This document shows positions 1 through 12,726 of a stretch of 12,726 bases of DNA, one piece after another. Position 1 is the stretch's first letter, and each line of letters starts with the position of its first letter. The notes beneath the pieces were generated by a model, which was not told where the DNA came from, made no database searches, and saw only the letters and a list, made by a program, of their open reading frames with translations. Location: the IMG/VR virus record IMGVR_UViG_3300014846_000084. One strand, written 5' to 3'. This DNA is from a virus. Taxonomy: Duplodnaviria > Heunggongvirae > Uroviricota > Caudoviricetes. Position numbers and translations under genes: made by a program.

Positions 1-1230
1 ATGAGCAGAGCACTTAACAAACTGAGCGATACACAGCTGAGGAAAATCAACGGCACACCCGCCCAAAAAACAGCCTTTCTTAATGACGGTGGAAACCTGA
101 GCGTCAGGCATTCAACCAGCGGCCTTTTAACCTGGTATTTCACCTACAGGGCCGGAACGGGAAGGGGAGCACGACCGGAACGGATTAAGCTGGGAAATTA
201 TCCTGATCTGAGTCTGAAAGCTGCCAGGGAAAAAGCGGCACAGTGTCGCGCTTGGCTTGCTGAGGGGAAAAATCCACGTCATGAGATGAATTACACCGTA
301 CAGAAAGCGTTAAAGCCCGTAACGGTTGGCGATGCGCTTACCTACTGGCTTGAGTCTTACGTAAAGGAAAACCGCGTGGATTATGCCGCCCTGAAAAAGC
401 GCCTTAATAATCACGTAATACAGCACATTGGTGCTATGCCGCTGGATAAATGCGAGCTACGGCACTGGCTGGCCTGTTTTGACCAGGTGGCAAAGCGAAC
501 GCCTGTTACTGCCGGATTCTTGCTACAGACGTGCAAACAGGCGCTTAAGTTCTGCCGGAGGCGGCGCTATGCAATCAGCAACGTTCTTGATGATATGAGT
601 GTGGCGGACGTTGGGAAAAAACCGGATATAAGCGAGCGTGTCTTAAGCACCAAAGAACTTGGCGAATTATTGCAGGCACTGGACAAAAAAATATTTTCCC
701 CTTACTACGTCGCACTAATCCGCCTCCTGATTGTTTTTGGATGCCGGACGGTAGAACTGAGGTTATCGGAGATCAGCGAGTGGGATTTTACCGAAATGCT
801 CTGGACCGTGCCGAAAGAACACAGCAAAACGAAGGTGGCAATATTCCGGCCCATACCGGAAGCAATACTGCCGTTCGTCACGCAGCTGGTGGAGCAGAAC
901 AGGCACACGGGCTTATTGCTGGGGGAAGTGAAACAGGAAACAAGCGTGTCGCAGTACGGCAGATTAGCGCACAGGAGGCTAAAACACCCTCACTGGTCAC
1001 TGCATGACATCCGGCGCACCTTTACAACGATGCTGAACGATTTAGGCGTGGATCCTCACGTCGTGGAGCAGCTTACAGGTCATCAGATGCCAGGGATGCA
1101 ACGAGTCTATAACCATTCCCGTTATCTGGATGCGAAACGTGACGCGCTGGATATGTGGACGGAGCGGTTAGGGATACTGGCGGGAACACATGAAAACGTA
1201 ACCACATTGCCAATAGCCAGAGAAATATAA
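1..1230 (+). CDS. int: Tyrosine site-specific integrase, P4-like family (409 aa)
   Basis: Full-length ORF from the track. C-terminal catalytic motifs are readable in the translation: R in GCRTVELRL, H-x-x-R in SLHDIRRTF, Y in QRVYNHSRY. N-terminal region resembles the arm-binding domain of P4-type integrases. Upstream start context is outside the window. Confidence 0.9.
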   Translation: MSRALNKLSDTQLRKINGTPAQKTAFLNDGGNLSVRHSTSGLLTWYFTYRAGTGRGARPERIKLGNYPDLSLKAAREKAAQCRAWLAEGKNPRHEMNYTVQKALKPVTVGDALTYWLESYVKENRVDYAALKKRLNNHVIQHIGAMPLDKCELRHWLACFDQVAKRTPVTAGFLLQTCKQALKFCRRRRYAISNVLDDMSVADVGKKPDISERVLSTKELGELLQALDKKIFSPYYVALIRLLIVFGCRTVELRLSEISEWDFTEMLWTVPKEHSKTKVAIFRPIPEAILPFVTQLVEQNRHTGLLLGEVKQETSVSQYGRLAHRRLKHPHWSLHDIRRTFTTMLNDLGVDPHVVEQLTGHQMPGMQRVYNHSRYLDAKRDALDMWTERLGILAGTHENVTTLPIAREI

Positions 1231-1257
1231 TTTTTTTTGCGATTTTTCAGGATGCGG

Positions 1258-1315
1258 ACAACGTGAAACAACGAGACACAACGACGAACAACAAGGAACA
1301 AAATGGAACAACGGG
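1258..1315. repeat. Tandem array of six phased 10-bp repeats (consensus about ACGnGGAACA, ACAAC core every 10 bp) immediately 3' of int
   Basis: ACAAC at 1258, 1268, 1278, 1288, 1308 and the variant ACAAA at 1298, exactly 10 bp apart. Top strand is almost entirely A/C/G. Confidence 0.6.
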
Positions 1316-1595
1316 TTAAAAATCAGCCATCGTAATAACCATTTGATTTTTATAGGTGTACTGTTTTTTTATACACTGGCGAATCACTCTTAAAAATATG
1401 TAAAAAAGGCGTAAAAGTAAAATTTTATGCCTTTGCATCATAATGAATTAAAAGAGTTTTTATTCTCATTCCCCCTGCTTCTGTAAAACGACCGCCGCCA
1501 GTGTTTGCCATTCCACAAACACCCTGACACAATCCGACACAACCCAACCCAATAATCCACCCAATGACTCTTTAAGAAACAACAAAGGGGGAATT

Positions 1596-1784
1596 GTGTT
1601 AAGCACAGATCGCTTTATACGTGAAAAAGAATGTCAGCAACTTACAGGCCTGAGCCGCTCATGTCGGTACCGCCTGGAAAAAGCCGGACAATTCCCATCA
1701 CGGCGTAAGCTGGGCGGTCGTTCCGTTGGCTGGTCTTTATCCGAAGTTCTGGCATGGAAGGACAGCTGCGAGGCAGTTCACTAA
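1596..1784 (+). CDS. alpA: AlpA-family (Vis/excisionase-like) HTH transcriptional regulator, 62 aa, GTG start
   Basis: Translation LTGLSRSCRYRLEKAGQFP...GWSLSEVLAWK matches the AlpA/MerR-like winged HTH pattern. Strong SD (AAAGGGGGA) 5 to 8 nt upstream of the GTG at 1596. Confidence 0.85.
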   Translation: MLSTDRFIREKECQQLTGLSRSCRYRLEKAGQFPSRRKLGGRSVGWSLSEVLAWKDSCEAVH

Positions 1785-1836
1785 TCAGGCTGGCGGCACA
1801 CAGCCGCCACCCATCCACTAATACAGAGATCTAACC

Positions 1837-3039
1837 ATGAATACTGGATATTCTCCCGAACAAGGGCGGGGCTTCGTTCGTCCTGAAAAACAGAATCTGC
1901 AAAATTTTGCCGAAATTATTCCGGTTATTTCCGGCCTTACTGGCGGGAGTGAAACCAATATTGTTAACGCCAGAGCGTTGCAGATGTTTGATGATAAAAA
2001 GGGAGTAAATTTAACTTACACCCCTGACGGCAATCAGAATATGAGCATTATCTCTGAGTCAGGTTTCTACAAACTAATAAAAACAAAAAGCGCCCCGTTG
2101 CCGGAGCGCCTTTGTGAACAATTAACCTACTGCGCAAAAAATGAATCTGAGCAGTGGGATTATATCAACCATGTGGAGAAGCGCCACAATTGCCGAATAA
2201 CGGGCAAAACAAAGGCCACCCGCTACGGTGGCCCCTCGACACAAGCTACACGTTATCCCCAACGCATGAGCATTGCCAACAATGCCACATTTGCGGCTGG
2301 TGGGCAATGCAATCAGTCTGGTTCAGTTCGTTGCCATACCTGCAATGAGCGCTTTTCCCTGTACTCTTTAAGGAATTGCTCAAGGGCAAAAGCACATGGC
2401 GCGAATCTTTCTGATTCATGCTCTATCTTTCTGCGCCGTCTTTTCCGTGCCGGTGATAATGTTTTGGTCAATTCTTTATCGGTCATTGTGTTGTCCTGCA
2501 TAGCAATGCGCCGTAATACCTTACACCACGGCGCTGATGGTGATTACTCTGGTTCTTTGGTCTTGCGGCGCTGGAGTTCTTCACGTGCGACAGTGACGAG
2601 CTGCCCGATCTCCTCGGCGGCTTTGATTCCGAGTTTTTCCACCTGCGCCAGTGCATCGAGCGAAGAAACTAGGGGATTTTCTCCACTTCCTTCTGCCTGG
2701 CGCCGGGCGATCTCACCGCGTACAGCCGTAACTATAAAATTCGCTTTAGTTTCCCCTGGCTGTAGGGATGCCTCAATGCCACTCACTACTTCATGTGGAA
2801 ATCTGGCATTCAGTTGCTGTGACTTATTGTTAACAGAACTCCTGGACATGTTTGCACCTCCCATTAATAACGGGATGCAGTGTAATACAAAAGTGAATAC
2901 CAAAAAAGACTTGAAATGGTATTCACCTAAATGTAATGTGAATACCACAAGTGCTGATACATGCAATTCAGCAATTGAAACGACGAAGCCCCGCACTGTT
3001 GGAGCAGTAACGGGGCTTCTAACCAACAACGTAAACTAG
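1837..3039 (+). CDS. Hypothetical ORF with a Bro-N/KilA-N-like segment in the first ~110 aa. The 3' boundary is uncertain: the open frame runs 400 codons, but the distal two thirds look like non-coding antisense of the minus-strand regulator gene. Possible pseudogene or mis-extended ORF.
   Basis: N-terminal translation contains KGVNLTYTPDGNQNMSIISESGFYKLIKTKS, which resembles the conserved Bro-N core. From about residue 150 the composition turns S/C/R-rich and overlaps a well-supported gene on the opposite strand. Weak SD before the ATG at 1837. Confidence 0.3.
   Translation: MNTGYSPEQGRGFVRPEKQNLQNFAEIIPVISGLTGGSETNIVNARALQMFDDKKGVNLTYTPDGNQNMSIISESGFYKLIKTKSAPLPERLCEQLTYCAKNESEQWDYINHVEKRHNCRITGKTKATRYGGPSTQATRYPQRMSIANNATFAAGGQCNQSGSVRCHTCNERFSLYSLRNCSRAKAHGANLSDSCSIFLRRLFRAGDNVLVNSLSVIVLSCIAMRRNTLHHGADGDYSGSLVLRRWSSSRATVTSCPISSAALIPSFSTCASASSEETRGFSPLPSAWRRAISPRTAVTIKFALVSPGCRDASMPLTTSCGNLAFSCCDLLLTELLDMFAPPINNGMQCNTKVNTKKDLKWYSPKCNVNTTSADTCNSAIETTKPRTVGAVTGLLTNNVN
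2313..2486 (-). CDS. Possible small basic protein (57 aa, MTDKELTKTLSPARKRRRRK...), downstream of the RHH gene on the minus strand
   Basis: ORF in the track (2313..2501) trimmed to the second ATG, which has an AGGA about 8 nt upstream. Composition is protein-like but there is no recognisable family. Overlaps the open + frame of the preceding feature. Confidence 0.2.
   Translation of the reverse strand: MTDKELTKTLSPARKRRRRKIEHESERFAPCAFALEQFLKEYREKRSLQVWQRTEPD
2544..2849 (-). CDS. Ribbon-helix-helix (Arc/MetJ-like) DNA-binding regulator, about 101 aa; candidate island repressor
   Basis: Track ORF 2544..3029 trimmed to the internal ATG at 2849, which has a strong SD (GGGAGGTG) 5 nt upstream. 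N-terminal segment LNARFPHEVVSGIEASLQPGETKANFIVTAVRGEI fits an RHH beta-strand/helix pattern. Transcribed divergently from the downstream operon. Confidence 0.7.
   Translation of the reverse strand: MSRSSVNNKSQQLNARFPHEVVSGIEASLQPGETKANFIVTAVRGEIARRQAEGSGENPLVSSLDALAQVEKLGIKAAEEIGQLVTVAREELQRRKTKEPE
2893..2947. promoter_or_regulatory. Operator-like triple repeat GTGAATACCA (direct 2893-2902, inverted 2918-2927, direct 2938-2947) in the divergent intergenic region between the RHH gene and the 3048 operon
   Basis: Three exact copies of a 10-mer in alternating orientation, within about 55 bp, lying between two divergent start codons (2849 minus, 3048 plus). Confidence 0.5.
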
Positions 3040-3248: not shown

Positions 3249-3477
3249 AACCACACCGGACGCAGCAGCCGCCGCGCTCACTACGCTGATGCACGCGCTT
3301 ATTGATATTTCTGTTATTGCTGACAGGGCGCATAAGCACGCCACCAGTGAAACAGAATATGCCGGGGCTTTCGTTCCTCATTCGCTGGCGGTTATGCAAC
3401 TTAGTGCGGATATGGCGCTGAATGAGGCCAAAGCCATCCTGATTGCTGATTGTGAAAATGGGGGGGGTTATGCGTGA
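3238..3477 (+). CDS. Hypothetical small protein (79 aa, MHNKTTPDAAAAALTT...)
   Basis: Track ORF 3196..3477 trimmed to the ATG at 3238, which overlaps the upstream stop and has AGGGGA upstream. Alanine/helix-rich, protein-like composition. Confidence 0.5.
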   Translation: MHNKTTPDAAAAALTTLMHALIDISVIADRAHKHATSETEYAGAFVPHSLAVMQLSADMALNEAKAILIADCENGGGYA

Positions 3478-3703
3478 TGATCGTTTTAATTCCCTGAAAC
3501 AGGAATTTTCCGACGTTCCTGATGATGCGGCTGATGCGCTTTCGTCAATGCCAGAGCTTATTAGAGCGGCTTTTTTCTTACTTTCCACGAGAGAATATAA
3601 ATCAACGGGGCTTGATGTACTGAATATCGCCGCCGATTATGCGGAATATGTGGCAGAGGCGCATTACAGAAGAAAATTTCCTGAGGATGTAAGCCATGCG
3701 TGA
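3470..3703 (+). CDS. Hypothetical small acidic protein (77 aa, MRDDRFNSLKQEF...)
   Basis: Track ORF 3443..3703 trimmed to the ATG at 3470, which overlaps the upstream stop in the motif ATGCGTGA. G-rich SD upstream. Confidence 0.55.
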   Translation: MRDDRFNSLKQEFSDVPDDAADALSSMPELIRAAFFLLSTREYKSTGLDVLNIAADYAEYVAEAHYRRKFPEDVSHA

Positions 3704-3929
3704 TATTTACCACGAAACAATAGACCGCGCATTTCTTGCACTTTCTCACAGTGAAAACATGCTGGAAATATTGCGCATATGGCTTGAAACACTTGGCGAC
3801 AATGAACGCGACAAACAAAAATCAAGAATTGCCACGGCATTAATAACGCTTCTTGATCCTGTAATAATGGAACTGCAAGAAATAGATCTATTGCACGACA
3901 GATATAAAGAACAGCACACCGGAGAATAA
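3696..3929 (+). CDS. Hypothetical small protein (77 aa, MRDIYHETIDRAF...)
   Basis: ATG at 3696 overlaps the upstream stop in the same ATGCGTGA arrangement. GAGGA SD at about 3682. Confidence 0.55.
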   Translation: MRDIYHETIDRAFLALSHSENMLEILRIWLETLGDNERDKQKSRIATALITLLDPVIMELQEIDLLHDRYKEQHTGE

Positions 3930-3934
3930 AAATA

Positions 3935-4234
3935 ATGAAACTTAAATATTCTGGCTTAACTGCCAGTGGCAACACTCACCCTAAATTTACGCGCGGTGAT
4001 ATTTACCGCGACCAGTACGGCGGCACGGTAATGATTAAGGGCGTGGAGGAACGTCGCGTAACTTACCGCCGTGAAGGCTACGAATATGATTGCGTGATGC
4101 CTGTTTATCAGTTCGACCGTGATTTTTCTCTTGTGCAGGCCGTACCGCGTAACGTGCCCACCAGCAGGGAGAAAGCACGCGCCAATATTCAGAAGATGAA
4201 AACCATGATTAACGGATTCAGGGGTAAAAAATGA
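3935..4234 (+). CDS. Hypothetical protein (99 aa), translationally coupled to the primase gene (ATGA overlap)
   Basis: Track ORF with GGAGA SD upstream. Its stop overlaps the primase ATG at 4231. Confidence 0.6.
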   Translation: MKLKYSGLTASGNTHPKFTRGDIYRDQYGGTVMIKGVEERRVTYRREGYEYDCVMPVYQFDRDFSLVQAVPRNVPTSREKARANIQKMKTMINGFRGKK

Positions 4235-5985
4235 AACTGGCACCGAACGTAAAACAGCAGTCACGCGGCATAAAACACAAAGAAACAGAAGTCATTATTT
4301 TTGCGGGTAGTGATGCCTGGTCACACGCAAAACAATGGCAGGAACATGACGCGCGTATGGCCGGAGATAATGAGCCTCCTGTGTGGCTTGGGGAGCAGCA
4401 GTTATCCGAACTGGATAAGCTGCAAATTGTGCCGGAAGGCAGAAAATGCGTACGAATATTCAGGGCCGGACATCTTGCGCCAGTAATGATAAAGGCGATT
4501 GGTCAGAAGCTGGCGGCGGCTGGCGTACAGGATGCAAATTTTTATCCTGAGGGTATGCACGGCCAGGAGGTGCAGAACTGGCGCGAATATCTGGCCCGTG
4601 AGCGACAGAATCTTTCTGATGGTCTGGTCATTGAGCTTCCGGTAAAGCAAAAGGCGCAACTTTCTCAGATGGCGGACAGTGAGCGCGCGCAGCTGCTTTC
4701 CGGGCGCTTTGATGGCGTTTGCGTGCATCCTGAAAGTGAAATCGTCCACGTCTGGCGCGGCGGGGGATGGTGTCCGGTCAGCACAATGGAACTGAGCCGC
4801 GAAATGGTGGCGATCTATTCAGAGCACAGGGCCACTTTCAGCAAGCGCGTAATCAATAACGCCGTGGAAGCGTTAAAAGTTATTGCCGAACCAATGGGCG
4901 AGCCGTCCGGTGATTTACTGCCGTTCGCCAATGGTGCGCTTGACCTGAAAACGGGGGAATTTTACCCGCACACGCCGGAGAACTGGATCACCACGCACAA
5001 CGGCATTGAGTACACGCCACCAGCACCAGGGGAGAACATCCGCGATAACGCGCCAAACTTTCATAAATGGCTTGAGCACGCAGCCGGAAAAGACCCGCGC
5101 AAGATGATGCGTATATGTGCCGCGCTGTACATGATTATGGCGAACCGGTACGACTGGCAGATGTTTATTGAGGCCACCGGAGATGGCGGGAGCGGTAAAA
5201 GTACATTCACGCACATAGCCAGCCTTCTGGCAGGGAAACAGAACACGGTAAGCGCTGAAATGACATCGCTTGATGATGCTGGTGGACGTGCGCAGGTTGT
5301 CGGGAGTCGTCTTATCGTCCTGGCTGACCAGCCGAAATATACAGGCGAAGGAACGGGCATCAAGAAAATCACGGGCGGTGACCCTGTGGAAATTAACCCG
5401 AAATACGAAAAGCGTTTCACGGCTGTAATCAGAGCGGTGGTGCTGGCGACCAACAATAACCCGATGATATTCACCGAACGGGCCGGAGGTGTGGCACGTC
5501 GTCGCGTGATTTTCCGTTTCGACAATATCGTCAGTGAGGCCGAAAAAGACAGGGAGCTACCGGAAAAGATTGCGGCTGAAATCCCTGTCATTATCCGCCG
5601 ATTGCTGGCGAACTTTACCGACCCTGAGAAGGCACGGGCTTTACTACTGGAACAGCGTGACGGTGATGAAGCTCTGGCAATAAAGCAACAGACGGATCCG
5701 GTTATTGAGTTTTGCCAGTTCCTGAATTTTCTGGAGGAAGCACGCGGCCTGATGATGGGCGGCGGTGGCGATTCAGTGAAGTACACGACCAGAAACAGCC
5801 TTTACCGCGTCTATCTGGCGTTTATGGCGTACGCAGGCAGGAGCAAACCGCTAAACGTAAATGACTTTGGCAAGGCTATGAAGCCAGCCGCGAAAGTTTA
5901 CGGACATGAATATATTACGCGGAAAGTTAAGGGAGTAACGCAGACTAACGCAATAACAACAGACGATTGCGACGCGTTTTTATAA
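4231..5985 (+). CDS. Phage/plasmid primase-helicase, P4 alpha-like (D5_N plus P-loop NTPase C-terminal region), 584 aa; probable replication initiator of the island
   Basis: Walker A reads EATGDGGSGKST and a Walker-B-like RLIVLADQ follows. Overall size and layout match P4-family primase C-terminal domain proteins. The iteron array starts directly after the stop. Confidence 0.88.
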   Translation: MKLAPNVKQQSRGIKHKETEVIIFAGSDAWSHAKQWQEHDARMAGDNEPPVWLGEQQLSELDKLQIVPEGRKCVRIFRAGHLAPVMIKAIGQKLAAAGVQDANFYPEGMHGQEVQNWREYLARERQNLSDGLVIELPVKQKAQLSQMADSERAQLLSGRFDGVCVHPESEIVHVWRGGGWCPVSTMELSREMVAIYSEHRATFSKRVINNAVEALKVIAEPMGEPSGDLLPFANGALDLKTGEFYPHTPENWITTHNGIEYTPPAPGENIRDNAPNFHKWLEHAAGKDPRKMMRICAALYMIMANRYDWQMFIEATGDGGSGKSTFTHIASLLAGKQNTVSAEMTSLDDAGGRAQVVGSRLIVLADQPKYTGEGTGIKKITGGDPVEINPKYEKRFTAVIRAVVLATNNNPMIFTERAGGVARRRVIFRFDNIVSEAEKDRELPEKIAAEIPVIIRRLLANFTDPEKARALLLEQRDGDEALAIKQQTDPVIEFCQFLNFLEEARGLMMGGGGDSVKYTTRNSLYRVYLAFMAYAGRSKPLNVNDFGKAMKPAAKVYGHEYITRKVKGVTQTNAITTDDCDAFL

Positions 5986-5997
5986 TTTGTTGCAATG

Positions 5998-6225
5998 GCT
6001 GTCTACCCTGTCTACCTGAGTAAAGAAAAATACATTTAATTCAGTACATTAACTTAGGTAGACAGCCTTTTTTCACTGTCTACCTACTATCTACCCTCTC
6101 TACCTGATTTTACCTGAATCAGACAGGGAGGTAGATACGGGGTAGATAGTGGATAAAAGCACTCTACCCTACTGAAAGCCGCGCCATTACTGGCATGGTG
6201 GCCAGTAAGGTAGATAAGGTAGACA
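5998..6225. repeat. Iteron array, candidate origin of replication: about 12 copies of GGTAGA(C/T)A / T(G)TCTACC in both orientations flanking an AT-rich spacer
   Basis: CTGTCTACC at 5999-6007, 6008-6016 and 6076-6084; GGTAGACAG at 6057-6065; TCTACC at 6090 and 6099; GGTAGATA at 6130, 6141 and 6209; GGTAGACA at 6218. AT-rich stretch at 6018-6056. Confidence 0.6.
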
Positions 6226-6273
6226 AGGGGAGGCACAACTCAAAACTTTTTAAACGAGGGGGTAAAAATAAAA

Positions 6274-6525
6274 ATGCGCACATCAGGAAAACTTAATAAT
6301 CAGAAGAAGCAGCATAACCGCGCCATTGACCTTACAGAGCACTGGCTGAGAGTGGCGATAAAAATCATCGACCGCAACACGGGGGAAGGATACGCGAAAG
6401 CACATCCCGACCTGATAAGCGCATTCATGACCACGGCGGCGGCAAACTTTGCCACGCTGACAGAACGGGAGATTGCCGAAGCGGAACAGGTAACAACCAT
6501 CAACGTTAAAAGCGCTGGAGAATAA
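6274..6525 (+). CDS. Hypothetical protein (83 aa)
   Basis: Track ORF. GAGGGGG SD at 6256-6262. Followed by an intrinsic terminator. Confidence 0.55.
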   Translation: MRTSGKLNNQKKQHNRAIDLTEHWLRVAIKIIDRNTGEGYAKAHPDLISAFMTTAAANFATLTEREIAEAEQVTTINVKSAGE

Positions 6526-6543
6526 CCGAAGAAGTGAGCACAT

Positions 6544-6568
6544 AGCCGGAGCAATCCGGCTTTTTTTC
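6544..6568 (+). terminator. Rho-independent terminator (AGCCGGA-gcaa-TCCGGCT followed by a T7 run)
   Basis: 7-bp GC-rich stem with a 4-nt loop and a run of seven T immediately after, 20 nt past the stop of the 6274 ORF. Confidence 0.6.
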
Positions 6569-6655
6569 GATCTCATATATCTTAAAAGATGGTTAATTAA
6601 TGATAATCTATCGAAAATACTGGTTATGTAATGATAAGTATCAGGAGAAAACAAA

Positions 6656-6850
6656 GTGGAAGAGATAAAGCAAAGCGCTACCGTGATGATTGATCATGAA
6701 ATCCTTAACGAGCTTAAAAAGTTGCAGTTCGATATTGTGCGCCGGATGAATGAATCAGGTATCTACGGCAGGGCGGCAACACCAACAATAGGGCATCTTG
6801 CGCGCGTACTGTTACGCGAACGCCTGGGCATTGCAACAAGTGAGGCGTAA
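6656..6850 (+). CDS. Hypothetical small protein (64 aa), GTG start; first gene of the putative late/packaging operon
   Basis: Track ORF. CAGGAG SD at about 6642. Preceded by an AT-rich promoter-like stretch at 6570-6650. Confidence 0.5.
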   Translation: MEEIKQSATVMIDHEILNELKKLQFDIVRRMNESGIYGRAATPTIGHLARVLLRERLGIATSEA

Positions 6851-6853
6851 ACA

Positions 6854-7015
6854 ATGGCTATCACAGAACGCGAGGCAAGCATCATTAAGGCCATTGGCGA
6901 GGAAACAAGAGACACCATAGCGCCATTGATGGAAAAGATCGCAGAGCTTGAGACACGAATAAACAAGCTGAGTAATGAAGTTGAAGGCCTGATCTCGTTA
7001 CTCGGTGAGCAATGA
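6854..7015 (+). CDS. Small predicted coiled-coil protein (53 aa, MAITEREASIIKAIGEETRDTIAPLMEKIAELETRINKLSNEVEGLISLLGEQ); absent from the ORF track, which appears to omit ORFs under 60 aa
   Basis: Translated by hand. ATG lies 4 nt after the upstream stop, with a GAGG about 9 nt upstream. Heptad-like charged/hydrophobic pattern. Confidence 0.4.
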   Translation: MAITEREASIIKAIGEETRDTIAPLMEKIAELETRINKLSNEVEGLISLLGEQ

Positions 7016-7143
7016 CATGGGGGGGAGTGTTCCGGCCGGAAAGTCGATCTCCCTGGACACCGCCCCCCGTCTCATTCGTAGAAAATTTTGCTTTTCAAAA
7101 AAGTTACACGAAAAGTTACACCCCCTCAAAACGAGGTTTTTGC

Positions 7144-7632
7144 ATGGCATTAACGACCAAAAAAAAGCGGTTTGCTGATGCGTTATCAAGGGGCGCAAAT
7201 CCCACGGAAGCCGCTATACATGCGGGATACAGCGAAAAGACCGCAAGGGTTAAAGGCTGGCAGCTATCCAACGATCCTGAGGTGAAAAAGTATCTTAAGG
7301 CTGTAACTCCTGATGTAACTTTTCAGGTTACAAAACCGAAAAAAGTTACAAAGAAAGTTACCGAAAAAGTTACACCGGAACGGGCATCAATTAACACCAT
7401 TGAGATGATGGATAACGGCCTACCCGACCCCATCAAAGCAATGGGCAGGATACTGATTGACAACATGGACACAGATCCAAAACTGGCTTTAGATGCCGCG
7501 TTTAAGCTGGCCCAGTTCACCCACCGCAAGATCGGCAGCATTGGGAAAAAAGAGGTTAAAAAACTCAATGCCGCTAGTGTCTCCTCAAATCGGTTCCCCA
7601 TCCCTAAGCCACCAACAGGCTTAAAACACTGA
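7144..7632 (+). CDS. terS: Terminase small subunit (TerS, Terminase_2-like), 162 aa
   Basis: Track ORF 7012..7632 trimmed to the internal ATG at 7144, which has a GAGG SD. N-terminus FADALSRGANPTEAAIHAGYSEKTARVKGWQLSNDPEV matches the conserved TerS HTH signature (AGYS..TA). The upstream 44 codons of the track ORF are GC-rich, structured, non-coding-looking sequence. Confidence 0.8.
   Translation: MALTTKKKRFADALSRGANPTEAAIHAGYSEKTARVKGWQLSNDPEVKKYLKAVTPDVTFQVTKPKKVTKKVTEKVTPERASINTIEMMDNGLPDPIKAMGRILIDNMDTDPKLALDAAFKLAQFTHRKIGSIGKKEVKKLNAASVSSNRFPIPKPPTGLKH
7303..7375. repeat. Cluster of six GTTAC/GTAAC pentamer-containing repeats spaced about 12 bp apart inside terS (encoding the repetitive KVT linker); candidate pac/TerS recognition site
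   Basis: GTAAC at 7303 and 7315; GTTAC at 7328, 7345, 7357 and 7369. Two further AAAAGTTACAC copies lie just upstream of the terS start (GTTACAC at 7103-7109 and 7115-7121). Confidence 0.45.
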
Positions 7633-7643
7633 GGTAGCGAACT

Positions 7644-7805
7644 ATGAGCGAATACATCACAGACCCTATTGATGTACTCACGGAAATCATGAACGACAAG
7701 CAGCAGTCGACCGAAATACGGTTACAGGCCGCCGCTATTCTGATGCCATATTTTCACGAAACACTAAACCCGTGCTTCCAAGAGGAGGAAGAAGATGATC
7801 TGTAA
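7644..7805 (+). CDS. Small acidic protein (53 aa, MSEYITDPIDVLTEIMNDKQQSTEIRLQAAAILMPYFHETLNPCFQEEEEDDL); absent from the ORF track
   Basis: Translated by hand. ATG at 7644 lies 11 nt after the terS stop, with a GAGG about 9 nt upstream. Its 3' end overlaps the start of the capsid-like gene by 11 nt. Confidence 0.4.
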   Translation: MSEYITDPIDVLTEIMNDKQQSTEIRLQAAAILMPYFHETLNPCFQEEEEDDL

Positions 7806-8718
7806 AAACATGAAAGGCGTGTCAGCAGTTCGCGCCGCCAGCGTGCTGGCATCGTGTAAATTTAGCCATGCTGACGCTATAGAGATGACGAAAAGAAATG
7901 ATCCGGCAGTATCGTTATTTCTTGAAAAATCCGTAGTAGCAGGAATGAACACGGATAACATGCCGTCGCTGGTGGCAGAGCCGATAGTAAGAGAGCTTGG
8001 CGAGTATATTTTTTCGCAGTCTGTACCAGGCAAGCTAATCAGCAGCGCGCTAAATCTTCCGTTTGGCGCAAAATTGCAGTCAATATCAGGCAAGGGTAGT
8101 AAATGGCTTAAAGAGGCCGAAGAAATCCCAGTCAAAGAGGGAGAAGTAAACGAAAGCGCGCTAAAACTGTGCAAACTCGGCGCTATTGTGATGCTGAATA
8201 ACGAGCTAATCAAATTTAGCACCCCTGGTACCAATTCAGCGATCAGAGACTTGATCACATCGGAATCGGTGAAAGAAATAGATAAAAAATTTCTTTCCAG
8301 TGACCAGGAGGTGGCTGGCGTATCCCCTGAGGGCGTGCTTAATGGTGCTGATGAGGCCGAAAACTTCATAGAGCTTTTCAAAAAGCACATAGCGAACGGT
8401 AACACGCTTGCCACGTCGTCGCTAATCTTGCCCGTAGAAAACGCCTTACAGCTTACTGATGCTGAGTTCTGGCAGATAGAGCTTTTGAGAATACCGGTAA
8501 TTGTGAGCGAACAGGCGGATCTCATGATGCTGATAGACGCTAAAAAGCTGATTATTAACGTTGAAGCCACGGTTATAACCCCAACTGATGAGGCGGTAAT
8601 AAAAACCGAATCAGGGACGGTTAGCCTTTTCCAGAATGACGCTACAGCGTTCATGGCAATCACCTATTGCGGATGGCAAAAACTCGATAAGGCCGTCACC
8701 GTTCTGGCGAAAAGCTGA
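7795..8718 (+). CDS. HK97-fold major capsid protein homolog (307 aa), putative; possibly a capsid-redirecting MCP paralog given the absence of other head genes
   Basis: AGGAGG SD 7 nt upstream of the ATG. The overall pattern, especially the C-terminal region (LRIPVIVSEQADLMMLIDAKKLIINVEATVITPT...SLFQNDATAFMAITYCGWQ), resembles HK97-type major capsid proteins. Assignment is by eye only. Confidence 0.55.
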   Translation: MICKNMKGVSAVRAASVLASCKFSHADAIEMTKRNDPAVSLFLEKSVVAGMNTDNMPSLVAEPIVRELGEYIFSQSVPGKLISSALNLPFGAKLQSISGKGSKWLKEAEEIPVKEGEVNESALKLCKLGAIVMLNNELIKFSTPGTNSAIRDLITSESVKEIDKKFLSSDQEVAGVSPEGVLNGADEAENFIELFKKHIANGNTLATSSLILPVENALQLTDAEFWQIELLRIPVIVSEQADLMMLIDAKKLIINVEATVITPTDEAVIKTESGTVSLFQNDATAFMAITYCGWQKLDKAVTVLAKS

Positions 8719-8732
8719 TTTTTCCGGCATCA

Positions 8733-8762
8733 ATCCCGATATGGTGATCCCCATATCGGGAT
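8733..8762. other. Perfect 12-bp inverted repeat hairpin (ATCCCGATATGG-tgatcc-CCATATCGGGAT) 15 nt after the capsid-like gene stop; possible weak terminator, RNA element or protein-binding site
   Basis: Arms at 8733-8744 and 8751-8762 are exact reverse complements. Followed by AT-rich sequence but not a clean T-run. Confidence 0.4.
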
Positions 8763-8805
8763 AATTACGAAATTTTCGCAGTTTAATAGCTGACCAGGTG
8801 GAGAA

Positions 8806-9087
8806 ATGACAGAAGCCGAAATACTGGGATTAATCCGCCGCGTTGCCGGAATCAGCAAGCAGGCCGACGAACAGGCCACGCAGCCGGACAGCGTGACCGC
8901 CGAAAATTATGTGCGTGTTGTTGCTGAGGTGATGCGCCGTGATGGTATCCAGCTTAATGATGTGGATATGCGCAACATACGGATCCGCGTTCTTGAAATG
9001 CTGGCCTACAATCGCCGCGTTGAACTGTATCGGGAGAAAGAAAAAATTACGTACCACTGGAAGAAGCCGGAGCGGTTACGGCGTTAA
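8806..9087 (+). CDS. Hypothetical protein (93 aa), last gene of the island
   Basis: Track ORF. AGGTGGAG SD at 8796-8803. Balanced, protein-like composition. Confidence 0.55.
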   Translation: MTEAEILGLIRRVAGISKQADEQATQPDSVTAENYVRVVAEVMRRDGIQLNDVDMRNIRIRVLEMLAYNRRVELYREKEKITYHWKKPERLRR

Positions 9088-9093
9088 CGAGTA

Positions 9094-9138
9094 GTGACAT
9101 ACCGTGACGGAGAGTGACAACCAGTGACACAACGTGAC
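9094..9138. repeat. Tandem array of five phased 10-bp repeats (GTGAC every 10 bp; consensus nnnGTGACAn) at the island terminus
   Basis: GTGAC at 9094, 9104, 9114, 9124 and 9134. Contains the octamer GACACAAC (9126-9133), which also occurs at 1275-1282 and 1536-1543. Confidence 0.6.
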
Positions 9139-9390
9139 AAAAAGACGGTATTTAAACAGGGGGAGTATTTAATACCCCTCCCACCAGCCTGATTAACATT
9201 TAACCGGAAAAAAAATCCGGTACCATGATGGCAGACGCTAGGGCAATCATTGCTGAAATTGCACACTTTTTAAGCAAATCATTTTAGTTATACGTTTGGT
9301 TATACGATTTAAAAGTTGAATCAAGCATATTTATTAAAATCATGTAGTTACACGCTAAATTAAACTACTCTCGTGCCAAAAATCCCAAGA

Positions 9391-9419
9391 AAAAACCAAC
9401 CCTTACGGTTGGTTTTTTT
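9391..9419. terminator. Bidirectional intrinsic terminator (AACCAACC-cttac-GGTTGGTT flanked by an A-run and a T-run); serves the convergent autotransporter gene and probably the island's rightward transcripts
   Basis: Perfect 8-bp stem (9394-9401 / 9407-9414) with a 5-nt loop, a T7 run on the + strand and an A-run upstream that gives a T-run on the minus strand. Lies about 60 nt past the autotransporter stop. Confidence 0.7.
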
Positions 9420-9480
9420 ATATCTGCAATTAATTCGATAAACAGACCGTGACACATCACAGCCTGTTTATTTTCTGTTA

Positions 9481-12072
9481 TCAGAACGTCCAGACCACAC
9501 CCGCCTGAGTATTCCACGGCGATTCTACCCCTGCGCCATTGCCATAGCTGACTGACAAATGACCGCTTAACGTCGGGGTAAACGATGACCTTATACCAGC
9601 CTGATAAACGCCACTGGTTCCAGCCACATCATTATTAAATTTGCCATCGTCATTAACTTTCACCTGGTTAGAATCGGCGTATTCCTGACGCACGGCCGCT
9701 TTCAGCCAGGGTTCCAGCGTCGTACCGTTTTGCAGGTCCATGTGATAGCTTACCGCCGTTCCCGCTTCAGCGCGTAATATCCGGGTATTTCCCACATCCG
9801 CGCGCATGCCGTTTGATAACGTGTAGTCCTGACCATCTGTGGTAAAGCCGGTAAAGGCCAGATAGGGTCTAACACTCCACAATCCGTCAACCCAACGGAA
9901 CCCGCTCTCAACATGAGCACCCGCGCCGTTACTATTGTAATCGCCAAACGCTGTTGCCCCATTACTCATCTTGCCATGGATGGTGTTGGCAAAACGGTCA
10001 ACTTTCACCACCCCATCAACATAGGCACCGTTCTGATGCTCCCAACCGGCATAAGCCCCCAGGGTATAGCTATCGATATTACCTTTGCCGCCGCGATCAA
10101 AACCAATATCAGAATGAGAGTAACCAAAGATCAAGCCGCGAATTGTACTGCTTTCTTCACGGGAGAAACGGCTATCGATACCGAGCGTCAGGCCCGTCAA
10201 TGTTTGCTCAAAACCAGCTCCCGCATCAGTGGTCACGTTGTTGCGGGTGTTAATTGCCGAACTCCACATCGCCGTATCGTAACTAACGCCTTTTACGCTA
10301 CCAAGACGCTCACGCACGGTGTCCAGTTCTGCATCAAATACCAGCGGTTGTGCGGCCGCCATATTCAGCACATCAGTGGTTGAAGGGGTAATTTGCGCGC
10401 GATTCTCTGCCAGACTCCAGCTATGGTTGCCATTATCCAGCAAGGTATATTCATACGTACCGATATCAACAACGCCTCCGGCATTGCCCAACGTAAATGC
10501 AGCATCACCGCCGCCCGTTGTTACCAGTGTAAGGCTATCTCCTGCTGCCGGGCTGGCACCGGTGTCCGTCACGAATATTTTGAAATCACCTGTTGCCTGA
10601 CCGGTGACGTTGAGCTGATCGCTCTGATGATTAGCCATATCGGTACGCATATAAAAATTGCCGTTTCCCGACAGGGTATTGGTGGTCAACGTAATGAAAT
10701 TTTCCGCACTTGCCGTCACTGATGAACGAGTCACTGGCTCATCCATCATAATCACATTTGCGTCAGACATCGCAAGGTTGGCTAAGTTGAGGAGGGTGTT
10801 TTGGTTCGTCGTAGTGATATCGGCAATGATGGTCCATACGCTATTTTCGAGCGAAACGTCCGCTTTGCTGGTATCCACGGCACCATTCGTTCTAAAAGAA
10901 GCGCCCTCAGAAACCACTACCTTACCCACCAACATTGCGGGTGCATAATTTATTTGCGGCTTCATGACCTCAAGAATGCCATCATTCCCTCTGACTGAAA
11001 CGTTAACCATTGTGCCAGCCCAGACGTTAGCGCGGCCATTGTTGATAACCATATTTTCAGAGATGGCTTTTGAGGAATACGTGATACTTCCATTCTGATA
11101 TGATCGACCGAGATCATATACCGCATTTGCCTGCACTTTCGTACCAGTATCCTTTCCCAGCGATTGCATAGTGGCATGCTTATCAAGGATAGTATCAATG
11201 GCCTGCGTGTCCTCCATAACAATGAGCCCGGAACCATCATCCAGTTCATAATTTTTTGACACACCATCTTTTATACTAAATTGGCCTTTACTGTTTGGAC
11301 CACTCACTTCCAGCGCATTCGTTGAGACAATTAATTTTCCGCCTGCTTTTTTATCAACGCCAGTTACAGTCCCGCCATCCATAACCTCCAGTAAGCCGCC
11401 ACTATCTACAGTGGTATTATAAGCGAAGTCATTTTCTTCAACTCGCAAACTTCCGCCGTTTTCCAACAACATATTATTAGCAATACCATTCTTGATATCG
11501 AACTGACCGAGACGGTTTGTTCCGAATACCTCCATGGCCCGCGTGGTTGTTTTAATAGCACCGCCTGCTTTCTGATCTACCGCAAATGCAAATCCCCCCT
11601 CTTTAACCTCCAGTAGTCCTCCCTTTTCGATAGCGACAAAGACGGCCCCCCCATCTTTTTCAACGATTAAGCGCCCGCCTTTAATCGTGGTATCATTCGC
11701 TGCGCCATAAACCTGTAGCACACCATTATTGAGCGTAGTCTGGTTTGCCGCGCCACCCATTTGAACAATTTGATAACCGTCATTTAATACTGAGTATTCT
11801 GCGGCGCCATTCATTTCAATGTACTGATACCCTCCGTTAATTTCAGTATTATTACTTACACCAAATTCTTTTATATGCTGTTCTCCGCCAGGATTGATTT
11901 TCGTATTATTGGCGGTCCCATAAACCAGCTGGATATCTTTTTCCAGGACAACACCATCAACTGTCTCACCATACTCAACAGTTGATGCCAATGCTATGGG
12001 TGAATATAACGCTGTAGCCACCAGAACAGATATTGCGGAACGACAAAGAGAAACAGAACCAGATTGATGCAT
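9481..12072 (-). CDS. AIDA-I-type (type Va) autotransporter adhesin, 863 aa, with signal peptide, repeat-rich passenger and C-terminal beta-barrel translocator
   Basis: N-terminal signal-peptide-like segment (LCRSAISVLVATALYSPIALAST). Passenger region has recurring glycine-rich repeats (e.g. NTKINPGGEQ, NTEINGGYQY, IVEKDGGAVF, LEVKEGGFAF). C-terminal about 280 aa has alternating aromatic/hydrophobic beta-strand pattern and ends ...AGVVWTF, typical of autotransporter beta-domains. Confidence 0.88.
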   Translation of the reverse strand: MHQSGSVSLCRSAISVLVATALYSPIALASTVEYGETVDGVVLEKDIQLVYGTANNTKINPGGEQHIKEFGVSNNTEINGGYQYIEMNGAAEYSVLNDGYQIVQMGGAANQTTLNNGVLQVYGAANDTTIKGGRLIVEKDGGAVFVAIEKGGLLEVKEGGFAFAVDQKAGGAIKTTTRAMEVFGTNRLGQFDIKNGIANNMLLENGGSLRVEENDFAYNTTVDSGGLLEVMDGGTVTGVDKKAGGKLIVSTNALEVSGPNSKGQFSIKDGVSKNYELDDGSGLIVMEDTQAIDTILDKHATMQSLGKDTGTKVQANAVYDLGRSYQNGSITYSSKAISENMVINNGRANVWAGTMVNVSVRGNDGILEVMKPQINYAPAMLVGKVVVSEGASFRTNGAVDTSKADVSLENSVWTIIADITTTNQNTLLNLANLAMSDANVIMMDEPVTRSSVTASAENFITLTTNTLSGNGNFYMRTDMANHQSDQLNVTGQATGDFKIFVTDTGASPAAGDSLTLVTTGGGDAAFTLGNAGGVVDIGTYEYTLLDNGNHSWSLAENRAQITPSTTDVLNMAAAQPLVFDAELDTVRERLGSVKGVSYDTAMWSSAINTRNNVTTDAGAGFEQTLTGLTLGIDSRFSREESSTIRGLIFGYSHSDIGFDRGGKGNIDSYTLGAYAGWEHQNGAYVDGVVKVDRFANTIHGKMSNGATAFGDYNSNGAGAHVESGFRWVDGLWSVRPYLAFTGFTTDGQDYTLSNGMRADVGNTRILRAEAGTAVSYHMDLQNGTTLEPWLKAAVRQEYADSNQVKVNDDGKFNNDVAGTSGVYQAGIRSSFTPTLSGHLSVSYGNGAGVESPWNTQAGVVWTF

Positions 12073-12269
12073 TGAGCTTTCATCCTATGAAATTAATTGC
12101 TGTTAAAAGCATTGGGTACAGAAAATACCCATAGCTCCATACCCGGAGTCAGTTTTTAAAAACTGTTTAAAGAAATGCACAAGTATTGTGATTGATTTTT
12201 TAGTTGTTTTTCTTGATGAGAAGCTGATGCAAAATTCCGTCTTTATAATGAAAATGATGCCAAAGCGAA

Positions 12270-12726
12270 TAGACTGGCCCCCTGAATCTCCAGACAACCA
12301 ATATCACTTAAATAAGTGATAGTCTTAATACTAGTTTTTAGACTAGTCATTGGAGAACAGATGATTGATGTCTTAGGGCCGGAGAAACGCAGACGGCGTA
12401 CCACACAGGAAAAGATCGCAATTGTTCAGCAGAGCTTTGAACCGGGGATGACGGTCTCCCTCGTTGCCCGGCAACATGGTGTAGCAGCCAGCCAGTTATT
12501 TCTCTGGCGTAAGCAATACCAGGAAGGAAGTCTTACTGCTGTCGCCGCCGGAGAACAGGTTGTTCCTGCCTCTGAACTTGCTGCCGCCATGAAGCAGATT
12601 AAAGAACTCCAGCGCCTGCTCGGCAAGAAAACGATGGAAAATGAACTCCTCAAAGAAGCCGTTGAATATGGACGGGCAAAAAAGTGGATAAAGCACGCGC
12701 CCTTATTGCCCGGGGATGGGGAGTAA
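12270..12726 (+). mobile_element. IS2 (IS3 family) insertion sequence, left end only; IRL begins about 12270 and the element continues beyond the window
   Basis: Sequence from about 12270 (TAGACTGGCCCCCTGAATCTCCAGACAACC...) matches my recollection of the IS2 left inverted repeat, and the downstream ORF matches IS2 orfA. Recognised from memory, not from a search. Confidence 0.8.
12361..12726 (+). CDS. insC: IS2 transposase OrfA (InsC-like HTH protein), 121 aa
   Basis: Track ORF 12316..12726 trimmed to the ATG at 12361, which has a GGAGAACAG SD-like sequence upstream. Translation [40 protein letters not shown]... is the IS2/IS3-family OrfA as I recall it. Confidence 0.88.

What the first reader, a model, noticed from the sequence alone, without database searches (positions are those of the whole stretch)
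5998..6225. Iteron-rich candidate origin directly downstream of the primase gene
About a dozen copies of GGTAGA(C/T)A in both orientations surround an AT-rich stretch, beginning 13 nt after the primase stop. Primase followed by an iteron ori is the replication module arrangement of phage satellites and many plasmids.
Basis: partly seen in the sequence, partly recalled or inferred. Interest (0 to 1): 0.5.

Follow-up and report, generated by a model that had tools for sequence, protein, structure and literature searches.

The report
Known satellite (PICI) replication origin
The repeat cluster is real and is the replication origin of an E. coli phage satellite island, almost base-for-base the origin already published and tested for the island EcCICFT073; one 20-base block inside it is unexpectedly shared with the origins of many unrelated phages and plasmids.

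Summary
There are 11 GGTAGA cores (9 exact GGTAGAYA) in both orientations at 6000-6225. They start 14 nt after the stop of ORF 4231-5985 and bracket a roughly 80% A+T stretch (6018-6056).

The intergenic region differs at 3 of 288 positions from that of E. coli CFT073, and none of the three lies in a core. That region is the ori of EcCICFT073. Fillol-Salom et al. [quoted passage not shown] Their published primers map the delta-ori construct to removal of window 5990-6296.

- The cores are invariant across 10 alleles while the spacers drift.
- An otherwise similar island with a RepA-type helicase carries a different repeat.
- The protein's C-terminus is homologous to the P4 alpha origin-binding domain, and the iteron (TGTCTACC) resembles P4's (TGTTCACC).

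One correction: no primase domain is detectable, so the protein is an initiator-helicase.

One unexpected result: the invariant non-iteron block at 6173-6192 recurs exactly in origins served by unrelated initiators (lambda-O-type, Rep_3, RepA-type helicase and others), and as close variants in a P1-like and an IncQ-like origin. Its function is unknown. A DnaG priming signal of the phage G4 type is one candidate.

The parts
4231..5985 (+). pri-rep gene (584 aa). It encodes the replication initiator and SF3 helicase. Its N-terminal ~135 aa form a domain of uncertain function.
   Evidence: Pfam matches D5_N (aa 159-282), DUF5906 (aa 316-417) and Pox_D5 (aa 487-575). Residues 141-573 are 40% identical to P4 alpha residues 324-756. 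It differs from CFT073 Pri-Rep at 11 of 584 residues.
5692..5958 (+). Coding region for the C-terminal winged-helix origin-binding domain (aa 488-576), the presumed iteron reader.
   Evidence: phmmer hit to PDB 1KA8, the P4 alpha origin-binding domain, E=1.2e-6. The domain is 82-100% conserved among 11 alleles.
6000..6016 (-). Left iteron pair: TGTCTACC at 6000-6007 and 6009-6016, 9-nt spacing.
   Evidence: Both cores are invariant in 10 alleles.
6018..6056 (.). AT-rich stretch, the presumed DNA unwinding element.
   Evidence: 30-nt windows are 73-80% A+T, and the stretch is among the least stable 40-mers of the window. Its sequence drifts between alleles but stays AT-rich.
6057..6064 (+). Iteron GGTAGACA, inverted relative to the left pair across the AT-rich stretch.
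   Evidence: Present in 9 of 10 alleles, shifted by 1-2 nt in four of them.
6077..6104 (-). Three iterons at 6077-6084, 6088-6095 and 6097-6104, with 11- and 9-nt spacing.
   Evidence: The 6090 core is invariant and the 6099 core is kept in 9 of 10 alleles. The 6079 copy is replaced by a plus-strand copy in alleles L006-L009.
6104..6122 (.). Short palindrome CTGATT-N7-AATCAG at the centre of the origin's pseudo-dyad (centre 6112/6113). It contains the degenerate copy GGTAAA at 6109-6114.
   Evidence: Inverted repeats I1, I2 and I9. Five mirror pairs share the centre 127.5 of the intergenic region.
6130..6148 (+). Two iterons GGTAGATA at 6130-6137 and 6141-6148, 11-nt spacing.
   Evidence: The 6130-6135 core is invariant in all 10 alleles. 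The 6141-6146 core is kept in 9 of 10, reading TGTAGA in L004.
6161..6168 (-). Iteron with core TCTACC (GGTAGAGT on the minus strand).
   Evidence: Invariant core.
6173..6192 (+). Invariant non-iteron block TGAAAGCCGCGCCATTACTG. It is an origin-associated module shared with many unrelated replicons. Its function is unknown; a DnaG priming signal or a host-factor site are candidates.
   Evidence: 18 of the block's 20 columns are invariant in the 10 alleles. It is unique in the window. The degenerate pattern matches exactly at 36 loci in one-genome-per-species contigs and in at least 120 viral contigs, mostly beside iterons. It lies inside the ori of phage Kapi1. Variants lie in a P1-like oriR and an IncQ-like oriV.
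6209..6225 (+). Right iteron pair: GGTAGATA at 6209-6216 and GGTAGACA at 6218-6225. It mirrors the left pair.
   Evidence: Inverted repeat I2 is 89% complementary to 6000-6017. Cores are invariant.
6242..6273 (+). Conserved leader and ribosome-binding region (AAAACTTTTTAAACGAGGGGGTAAAAATAAAA) of the next gene, 6274-6525.
   Evidence: Invariant runs at 6242-6263. A CDS begins at the equivalent position in CFT073.

Best explanation
Window 5998-6225 is the vegetative replication origin (ori) of an EcCICFT073-type phage-inducible chromosomal island.

Proposed mechanism:
1. After the island is induced, the 584-aa product of 4231-5985 binds the GGTAGA(Y)A iterons. This protein is a P4-alpha-like SF3 helicase with a C-terminal winged-helix origin-binding domain.
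2. The iterons are arranged as a near-perfect dyad, so binding should assemble helicase rings on both sides.
3. The AT-rich stretch 6018-6056 melts, and the protein then acts as its own replicative helicase.
4. No primase domain is recognisable, so priming is probably done by the host.

Status of each step:
- Shown by others for the 99%-identical CFT073 sequence: the pri-ori segment drives plasmid replication, and deleting either the gene or this intergenic region impairs it.
- Shown here: the repeats, their conservation, their co-variation with initiator type, and the homology of the binding domain.
- Inferred: which domain reads the iterons, double-ring loading, the melting site, and host priming.
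For: - The ori region is 99% identical to CFT073. There are 3 differences in 288 nt, none in a core.
- Their primers place the end of the delta-ori construct at window 5989 and the end of the pri-ori construct at 6296.
- Phylogenetic footprint over 10 alleles down to about 72% identity: 55 of 66 core columns are invariant, against 37 of 162 non-core columns (Fisher p=1.7e-17).
- Number, order and orientation of the iterons are conserved.
- Module swap: island L011 shares the flanking genes but has a RepA-family helicase. It carries AGTGGGGA repeats around an AT-rich stretch and no GGTAGA.
- No second GGTAGA cluster exists in the window.
- The C-terminal domain matches the P4 alpha origin-binding domain 1KA8.
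- The P4 type-1 iteron TGTTCACC is identical to TGTCTACC at 6 of 8 positions, with the same 9-11-nt spacing. P4's crr also lies immediately 3' of its alpha gene.
- The helicase core matches SaPI5 PriRep, PDB 7OLA. SaPI Reps are self-loading helicases that bind iterons placed 3' of rep (PMC9371898).
Against: - No binding, melting or start-site data exist for this sequence or for EcCICFT073.
- In the published test, deleting the ori 'significantly reduced' colony numbers; the paper does not say it abolished them.
- The AT-rich stretch is not at the dyad centre. Its mirror position is G+C-rich, so double-ring loading around one central melting site is not obvious.
- The window's island is a mosaic and its own activity is untested.
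Confidence: 0.9

Rival explanations
1. The cluster is an auxiliary cis element like the P4 crr. It would enhance replication by looping to a separate true origin, rather than being the site where replication starts.
For: It occupies the position of the P4 crr, directly 3' of the alpha homologue, and uses a related iteron.
Against: The window spans the island from int to its right end and holds no second iteron cluster. The only other GGTAGA copies are isolated ones at 750, 9524 and 11576. The cloned pri-ori segment alone supported plasmid maintenance.
Confidence: 0.04
2. The repeats are mainly operators. The initiator or another island protein would bind them to terminate or regulate transcription from pri-rep into the downstream genes.
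For: The cluster fills the whole gap between two co-oriented genes. Iteron origins often double as autoregulatory sites (general knowledge).
Against: No sigma-70-like promoter is predicted in 5800-6400, and the only terminator-like site lies on the minus strand at 6309-6321, outside the repeat cluster. The repeats travel with the initiator type and not with the downstream genes. Replication dependence on the region is published. A secondary regulatory role is not excluded.
Confidence: 0.03
3. The repeats are a packaging (pac/cos) site or integrase arm-type sites.
For: The island encodes a small terminase (7012-7632) and an integrase (1-1230).
Against: The same ori occurs in cos-type EcCICFT073 and in this terS-type island, although their packaging modules differ. 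In one search the best-matching yejO-site islands align only from window 2295 onward, so the int end does not travel with the replication module. The EcCICFT073 cos sites were cloned and deleted as separate sites from the ori. A different repeat (GTGAC, five copies) sits at the island's right end.
Confidence: 0.02

Closest known systems
ori of EcCICFT073, the prototype Gram-negative PICI (Fillol-Salom et al. 2018, ISME J, PMC6092414)
   Same: The position is the same and 285 of 288 intergenic bases are identical. The iterons and the AT-rich region are the same. The initiator is 98% identical (573 of 584 residues).
   Different: Three point differences lie outside the cores. The surrounding island is a mosaic: the int end matches CFT073, while the packaging end carries terS plus a capsid-like gene and abuts yejO.
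SaPI origins (Staphylococcus aureus pathogenicity islands), as summarised in PMC9371898
   Same: The ori lies immediately 3' of rep. It has 6-12 short iterons, at least two on each side of an AT-rich region and pointing in opposite directions. The initiator is a self-loading helicase with a C-terminal winged-helix domain, and its ATPase core is homologous (7OLA, E=9e-15).
   Different: The iteron sequence differs and the host is Gram-negative. The AT-rich region here is off-centre, with two iterons on one side and nine on the other.
Satellite phage P4 ori/crr with alpha protein
   Same: The helicase and origin-binding domain are 40% identical. The iteron matches at 6 of 8 bases (TGTCTACC against TGTTCACC), occurs in both orientations, and has 9-11-nt spacing. 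The cluster lies directly 3' of the initiator gene, as the crr does.
   Different: P4 needs two loci about 4.5 kb apart (ori and crr), whereas there is a single cluster here. P4 alpha has an N-terminal zinc ribbon and Toprim primase that are absent here. P4 contains no GGTAGA at all and has no match to the 20-nt block.
Classical iteron plasmid origins (Rep_3/RepA type, P1 oriR, IncQ oriV)
   Same: These also have repeated initiator sites next to an AT-rich unwinding region. The 20-nt block or a close variant occurs in some of them, between the iterons and the AT-rich part.
   Different: Their iterons are 17-22 bp long and mostly direct repeats, and their initiators are not helicases. Here the repeats are 8-mers in both orientations and the initiator is the helicase.
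Phage G4 complementary-strand origin (a primase-only priming signal)
   Same: The block and its left flank share CCCTACTG-AAAGCC and GAAAGCCGC...TACTG with the annotated G4 primer start site.
   Different: The G4 stem-loops are not conserved here, and the similarity is short (14 of 15 bases). The block's orientation relative to the AT-rich region varies between replicons.

Membership tests
Gram-negative PICI pri-rep/ori module (EcCICFT073 type) | The ori lies immediately 3' of the replication initiator gene. | tested here: met
   The stop codon ends at 5985 and the first iteron starts at 6000.
Gram-negative PICI pri-rep/ori module (EcCICFT073 type) | Two sets of iterons flank an AT-rich region. 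| tested here: met
   Iterons at 6000-6016 and from 6057 onward flank 6018-6056, which is 73-80% A+T.
Gram-negative PICI pri-rep/ori module (EcCICFT073 type) | Sequence identity to the published element. | tested here: met
   285 of 288 nt of the intergenic region and 573 of 584 aa of Pri-Rep are identical to CFT073.
Gram-negative PICI pri-rep/ori module (EcCICFT073 type) | Island context: an integrase, an AlpA-type regulator, rightward unidirectional genes, and a size of roughly 9-12 kb. | tested here: met
   An integrase at 1-1230. Window 1-2574 is 99.5% identical to CFT073, including its helix-turn-helix regulator gene. terS and a capsid-like gene lie downstream. The chromosomal gene yejO starts at 9481.
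Gram-negative PICI pri-rep/ori module (EcCICFT073 type) | Initiator-dependent replication of DNA that carries the ori. | not testable with these tools
   Published for the CFT073 sequence. Not shown for this window's three-base variant.
P4 ori/crr - alpha system | An alpha-type initiator with an SF3 helicase and a C-terminal origin-binding domain. | tested here: met
   40% identity over 434 aa (E=2e-111). Hit to 1KA8 at E=1.2e-6.
P4 ori/crr - alpha system | An N-terminal zinc-ribbon and Toprim primase domain. | tested here: not met
P4 ori/crr - alpha system | Type-1 iteron TGTTCACC. | tested here: not met
   The iteron here is TGTCTACC, TATCTACC or CTCTACC, a 6 of 8 match.
P4 ori/crr - alpha system | Two separated cis elements (ori and crr). 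| tested here: not met
   There is one cluster only in the window.
Classical iteron plasmid origin (Rep_3/RepA winged-helix initiators) | Direct repeats of 17-22 bp bound by a non-helicase Rep protein. Host DnaA boxes are usual. | tested here: not met
   The repeats are 8-mers in both orientations and the initiator is an SF3 helicase. The single DnaA-box-like site at 6148-6156 is not above chance and is kept only in close alleles.
G4-type single-strand initiation signal (for the 20-nt block only) | Sequence and structure resembling the G4 complementary-strand origin, with a CTG start site. | tested here: inconclusive
   The best local match between the window and the G4 complementary-strand origin falls exactly on the primer start (14 of 15 bases, z about 5.8). 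However, the hairpin is weak in the PICI alleles (2-4 of 7 pairs), and the block's orientation relative to the AT-rich region varies between replicons.
G4-type single-strand initiation signal (for the 20-nt block only) | Primase-only priming on SSB-coated single-stranded DNA. | not testable with these tools
   This needs an in vitro DnaG/SSB assay.

The most novel reading that the evidence does not exclude
The invariant 20-nt block inside this origin (6173-6192, TGAAAGCCGCGCCATTACTG) may be a previously undescribed, initiator-independent origin module.

The same sequence sits within or beside the iteron arrays of replicons whose initiators are unrelated. These include D5/P4-type and RepA-type helicases of PICIs, lambda-O-type phages such as Kapi1 and some Stx2a phages, Rep_3 replicons, and prim-pol and Toprim-helicase elements. 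P1-like oriR and IncQ-like oriV carry close variants.

The block would therefore be read by something the hosts share. One candidate is DnaG primase acting at a G4-like priming signal. That would also explain how a Pri-Rep without a primase domain gets its first primer.
Probability: 0.35. Interest if true: 0.6.

Novelty: already known. Interest (0 to 1): 0.3.

Why it matters
As an origin call it adds little. It re-finds the published ori of the best-studied Gram-negative phage satellite, in a mosaic relative.

Three by-products may be of use:
1. The evidence ties PICI origins to the P4 ori/crr system through a homologous binding domain and a related iteron. The 2018 paper treats these systems as only distantly related.
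2. The protein annotated as 'DNA primase' has no recognisable primase catalytic domain. How these satellites are primed is therefore an open question.
3. A 20-nt sequence is shared by origins with unrelated initiators. If it is functional, it would be a common host-facing element of many phage, satellite and plasmid origins, and an easy target for mutagenesis.

Tried and rejected
- **Known RNA families.** Rfam at gathering thresholds found nothing in the whole window. Rfam at E<=1 on eight block-bearing loci found only tRNAs and spurious microRNA-like hits on palindromes. The window has no tRNA.
- **Promoters and terminators.** The scan of 5800-6400 found no promoter and only one minus-strand terminator-like site inside the next gene.
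- **DnaA box.** TTATCCACT at 6148-6156 is not above chance (6 sites found, 2.7 expected) and is absent from the divergent alleles.
- **Hairpin right of the block.** In this window, ATTACTGGC / GCCAGTAA can form a hairpin to the right of the block, but its right arm is not conserved between alleles.
- **Hairpin enclosing the block.** TGAAASCC / GGSTTTCA gives 6-7 pairs in only a subset of loci and 2-4 in the PICI alleles. The mean is 3.7 of 7, against 3.6 with permuted partners, and covariation at the S position is weak. I therefore treat the block as sequence-conserved and not structure-conserved.
- **Literature search for the block.** Searching for the block as a text string gave no relevant paper.
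- **Coding-sequence matches.** Five of the 36 genome hits lie in a conserved flavoprotein gene, where the block encodes MKAAPLLR. I set these aside as a coding coincidence.

Full report
**1. The observation**

The sequence at 5998-6225 holds 9 exact copies of GGTAGAYA. No copy lies elsewhere in the 12.7-kb window, where 0.35 would be expected, and 0 of 200 shuffles reach 9. Counting the 6-mer core GGTAGA gives 11 copies between 6002 and 6223, against 3 scattered copies in the rest of the window. A twelfth, degenerate copy (GGTAAA) lies at 6109-6114. Six cores are on the minus strand and five on the plus strand. Neighbouring copies are 9 or 11 nt apart.

A 39-nt stretch at 6018-6056 has 30-nt windows of 73-80% A+T. 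It is among the least stable duplex segments of the window, ranking 23rd of 12,685 40-mers. It lies between two minus-strand copies (6000-6016) and a plus-strand copy (6057-6064). ORF 4231-5985 ends 14 nt before the first copy.

Ten of the eleven cores form five mirror pairs about a single centre at 6112/6113, where a short palindrome (CTGATT-N7-AATCAG) sits.

**2. What it is**

A 401-nt query across the region matches 517 of 5,426 complete E. coli genomes, always on the chromosome. It is 99% identical to E. coli CFT073 at 1383910-1384310. In CFT073 that position lies between the genes annotated 'DNA primase family protein' and 'hypothetical protein', in the island inserted between roxA and phoQ. 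This island is EcCICFT073, the prototype phage-inducible chromosomal island (PICI) of Gram-negative bacteria.

The 288-nt intergenic region differs from CFT073 at three positions (6056, 6074, 6170). None is in a GGTAGA core. The protein differs at 11 of 584 residues, none in the C-terminal domain.

Fillol-Salom et al. 2018 (PMC6092414) state that the region immediately 3' of the replication initiator gene of these islands is the origin. [quoted passage not shown] They cloned the EcCICFT073 rep gene plus the putative ori into the temperature-sensitive plasmid pKO3-blue. At 44 C the pri-ori plasmid gave colonies and the delta-rep plasmid did not. [quoted passage not shown]

Their supplementary primer table lets the constructs be placed on this window. 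The pri-ori insert ends at window 6296 and the pri-delta-ori insert ends at window 5989.

**3. Independent support obtained here**

- **Conservation.** I aligned the region from ten alleles, some down to about 72% identity. Within 5998-6225, 55 of 66 core columns are invariant, against 37 of 162 other columns (Fisher p=1.7e-17). The alleles are related, so this is a footprint and not a set of independent trials. The contrast is still plain in the alignment. The number, order and orientation of the copies are kept in all alleles, and the approximate dyad is kept to within 1-2 nt. Positions 7-8 of the 8-mer vary by lineage: GGTAGAYA here and GGTAGAGG in four alleles.
- **Co-variation with the initiator.** Island L011 shares the genes on both sides (98.7% identity over window 6352-12269). 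In place of this protein it encodes a RepA-family helicase. Directly after that gene lie six AGTGGGGA repeats around an AT-rich stretch, with no GGTAGA. None of the loci with the D5-type protein contains AGTGGGGA. The repeats therefore travel with the initiator as one module.
Residues 488-576 match the crystal structure of the origin-binding domain of P4 alpha protein (1KA8, E=1.2e-6). Residues 141-573 are 40% identical to P4 alpha residues 324-756. In the annotated P4 genome the type-1 repeats are TGTTCACC, with spacings of 9-11 nt, in both orientations. One of the two clusters (the crr) lies immediately 3' of the alpha gene. The iteron here, read on the same strand, is TGTCTACC, a 6 of 8 match. 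The binding domain is the most conserved part of the protein among alleles at 82-100%, whereas the N-terminus ranges from 46% to 98%. Two substitutions in it (N to A and G to S in PLNVNDFGKAM) occur only in the four alleles with GGTAGAGG iterons. With only four related alleles, this is a hint and no more.

**4. The 'primase'**

Pfam finds D5_N, DUF5906 (the SF3 helicase P-loop region) and Pox_D5. The NCBI name comes from TIGR01613 'primase_Cterm'. That model covers residues 229-495 and scores 108.4 bits, just under its 108.7-bit cutoff.

Reading the sequence against the model, the strand ends that carry the Toprim Glu and DxD residues read FAGSD and FRAGH. I infer a degenerate, probably inactive, Toprim-like domain, but this is not established. 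The same N-terminal domain is also found fused to RepA/AAA-type helicases. The protein is best described as an initiator-helicase. The source of primers is open.

**5. Mechanism**

The most likely mechanism is that of SaPI Reps and P4 alpha. The winged-helix domain binds the iterons, the helicase self-assembles on either side of a melted AT-rich stretch, and it then unwinds the DNA (background from PMC9371898). The dyad arrangement of ten iterons fits loading of two oppositely oriented rings.

One asymmetry remains unexplained. The AT-rich stretch lies in the left half of the dyad and its mirror position is G+C-rich.

**6. An unexpected element inside the origin**

Apart from the iterons and the ribosome-binding region of the next gene, the only invariant stretch is 6173-6192, TGAAAGCCGCGCCATTACTG.

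*How often it occurs.* An exact search with TGAAASCCGCGYCATTACTG in one genome per species found 36 loci. By my arithmetic, about 4 are expected for 1.2e12 positions. Five of the 36 lie in a conserved coding gene and are a separate matter. Of those hits, 118 had full flanks, and they fall into 14 groups by flank similarity.

*Where it occurs.* Most non-coding occurrences lie within or beside short repeats that differ from locus to locus, often next to an AT-rich run. The neighbouring initiators belong to unrelated families:
- The D5-type PICI protein.
- RepA-family helicases (L056, L159; family assigned by eye from the helicase motifs).
- Lambda-O-type proteins. In phage Kapi1 the block sits in the middle of the iteron array inside gene O, with 25 of 25 bases identical. 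The same match occurs in O-type replication genes of some Stx2a phage records and in Salmonella plasmid records that carry lambdoid cI/cII-type regulators.
- A Rep_3-type protein (L123; assigned by eye).
- A prim-pol protein (L015), a VirE-like protein (L016) and Toprim-helicases (L032, L046). I read these from the sequences by eye and did not run them through Pfam.

Close variants also occur. One lies between the GATC-rich/AT-rich part and the iterons of a P1-like oriR. Another lies between the iterons and the AT-rich part of an IncQ-like oriV.

Other occurrences are in core-genome intergenic regions, such as lon-hupB in Pseudoxanthomonas, or between a tRNA or tmRNA gene and an integrase gene.

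*What it is not.* It matches no Rfam family. An enclosing hairpin exists only in a subset of loci. The side on which the AT-rich region lies is not constant.

*One lead.* The best local match between this window and the phage G4 complementary-strand origin falls exactly on the annotated G4 primer start (CCCTACTG-AAAGCC, 14 of 15 bases, z about 5.8). The block also shares GAAAGCCGC...TACTG with the G4 stem-loop I and start site. Phage alpha3 keeps only part of this. From memory, and not checked here, primase-only 'G4-type' priming signals are known at plasmid origins such as R1. The collection of such signals by Nomura et al. 1991 is cited in PMC6854812. Also from memory, the G+C-rich spacer of P1 oriR was reported to tolerate sequence changes, which would argue against a sequence-specific role.

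I rate the DnaG-signal reading at about one in four. I rate the broader claim, that the block is a functional origin module independent of the initiator, at about one in three. No paper in the searchable library prints the sequence, but that library omits most of the older replication literature.

**7. Verdict**

The finding is correct and well described, and it is already known. It is the EcCICFT073-type PICI origin, differing by three bases from the published and tested sequence. The score is low for that reason. It is raised slightly for the conserved 20-nt block, for the P4 link and for the absent primase domain, all of which merit a short follow-up.

Noticed in passing
window 6173-6192; also L049 1501-1525, L052 119-143, L053 2501-2530, L176 2501-2523, L013-L048, L055-L174: The 20-nt block TGAAAGCCGCGCCATTACTG, invariant in the PICI ori, recurs exactly or nearly so in iteron origins of replicons with unrelated initiators (lambda-O type, Rep_3/P1-like, IncQ-like, RepA-type, prim-pol). 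It also recurs in some core-genome intergenic regions and at tRNA-integrase junctions. Its function is unknown. It shows a short similarity to the phage G4 primer start site.
   Followed up: partly
window 4231-4650 (aa 1-140 of the 584-aa protein): The N-terminal domain matches no family and replaces the zinc-ribbon/Toprim primase of P4 alpha. The same domain is also fused to RepA/AAA-type helicases. Its predicted fold is weakly Toprim-like, and the usual acidic motifs appear to be missing.
   Followed up: partly
L011 4660-4890: A sister island at the yejO site has a RepA-family helicase in place of the D5-type protein. Its own origin has six AGTGGGGA repeats around an AT-rich stretch. This is a clean initiator-plus-iteron module swap.
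   Followed up: yes
window 1-2574 versus 3416-12269: The island is a mosaic. The int end is 99.5% identical to EcCICFT073, which sits between roxA and phoQ. The body and right flank match islands inserted next to yejO, which carry a different integrase beside tRNA-Pro. The window starts at the int ATG, so the left junction cannot be seen.
   Followed up: partly
window 9089-9145: Five GTGAC(A) motifs at 10-11-nt spacing lie just after ORF 8806-9087, at the right end of the island. Four of the window's five GTGACA copies are here. They may be recombinase or regulator binding sites.
   Followed up: no
window 5890-5910 (codons for PLNVNDFGKAM) and alleles L006-L009: Two substitutions in the origin-binding domain (N to A, G to S) occur only in the alleles whose iterons read GGTAGAGG instead of GGTAGAYA. 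This may be a specificity switch.
   Followed up: partly
window 6148-6156: A DnaA-box-like TTATCCACT lies on the minus strand between two iterons. It is kept only in the closest alleles and is not above chance in the window.
   Followed up: yes
window 9481-12072 (minus strand) and 12316-12726: yejO is an intact 863-aa ORF here, whereas the two related genomes inspected annotate it as a pseudogene with an internal stop. An open reading frame that looks like an insertion-sequence orfA runs off the right end of the window. I judged that by eye and did not test it.
   Followed up: no
L050 233-262 (phage phiCTX 35319-35348): A related hairpin, CTGAAGGCC-N11-GGCTTTCAG, is flanked by GGTAATT repeats in phiCTX 'region 3', between cos and attP and next to the annotated IHF sites.
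   Followed up: no
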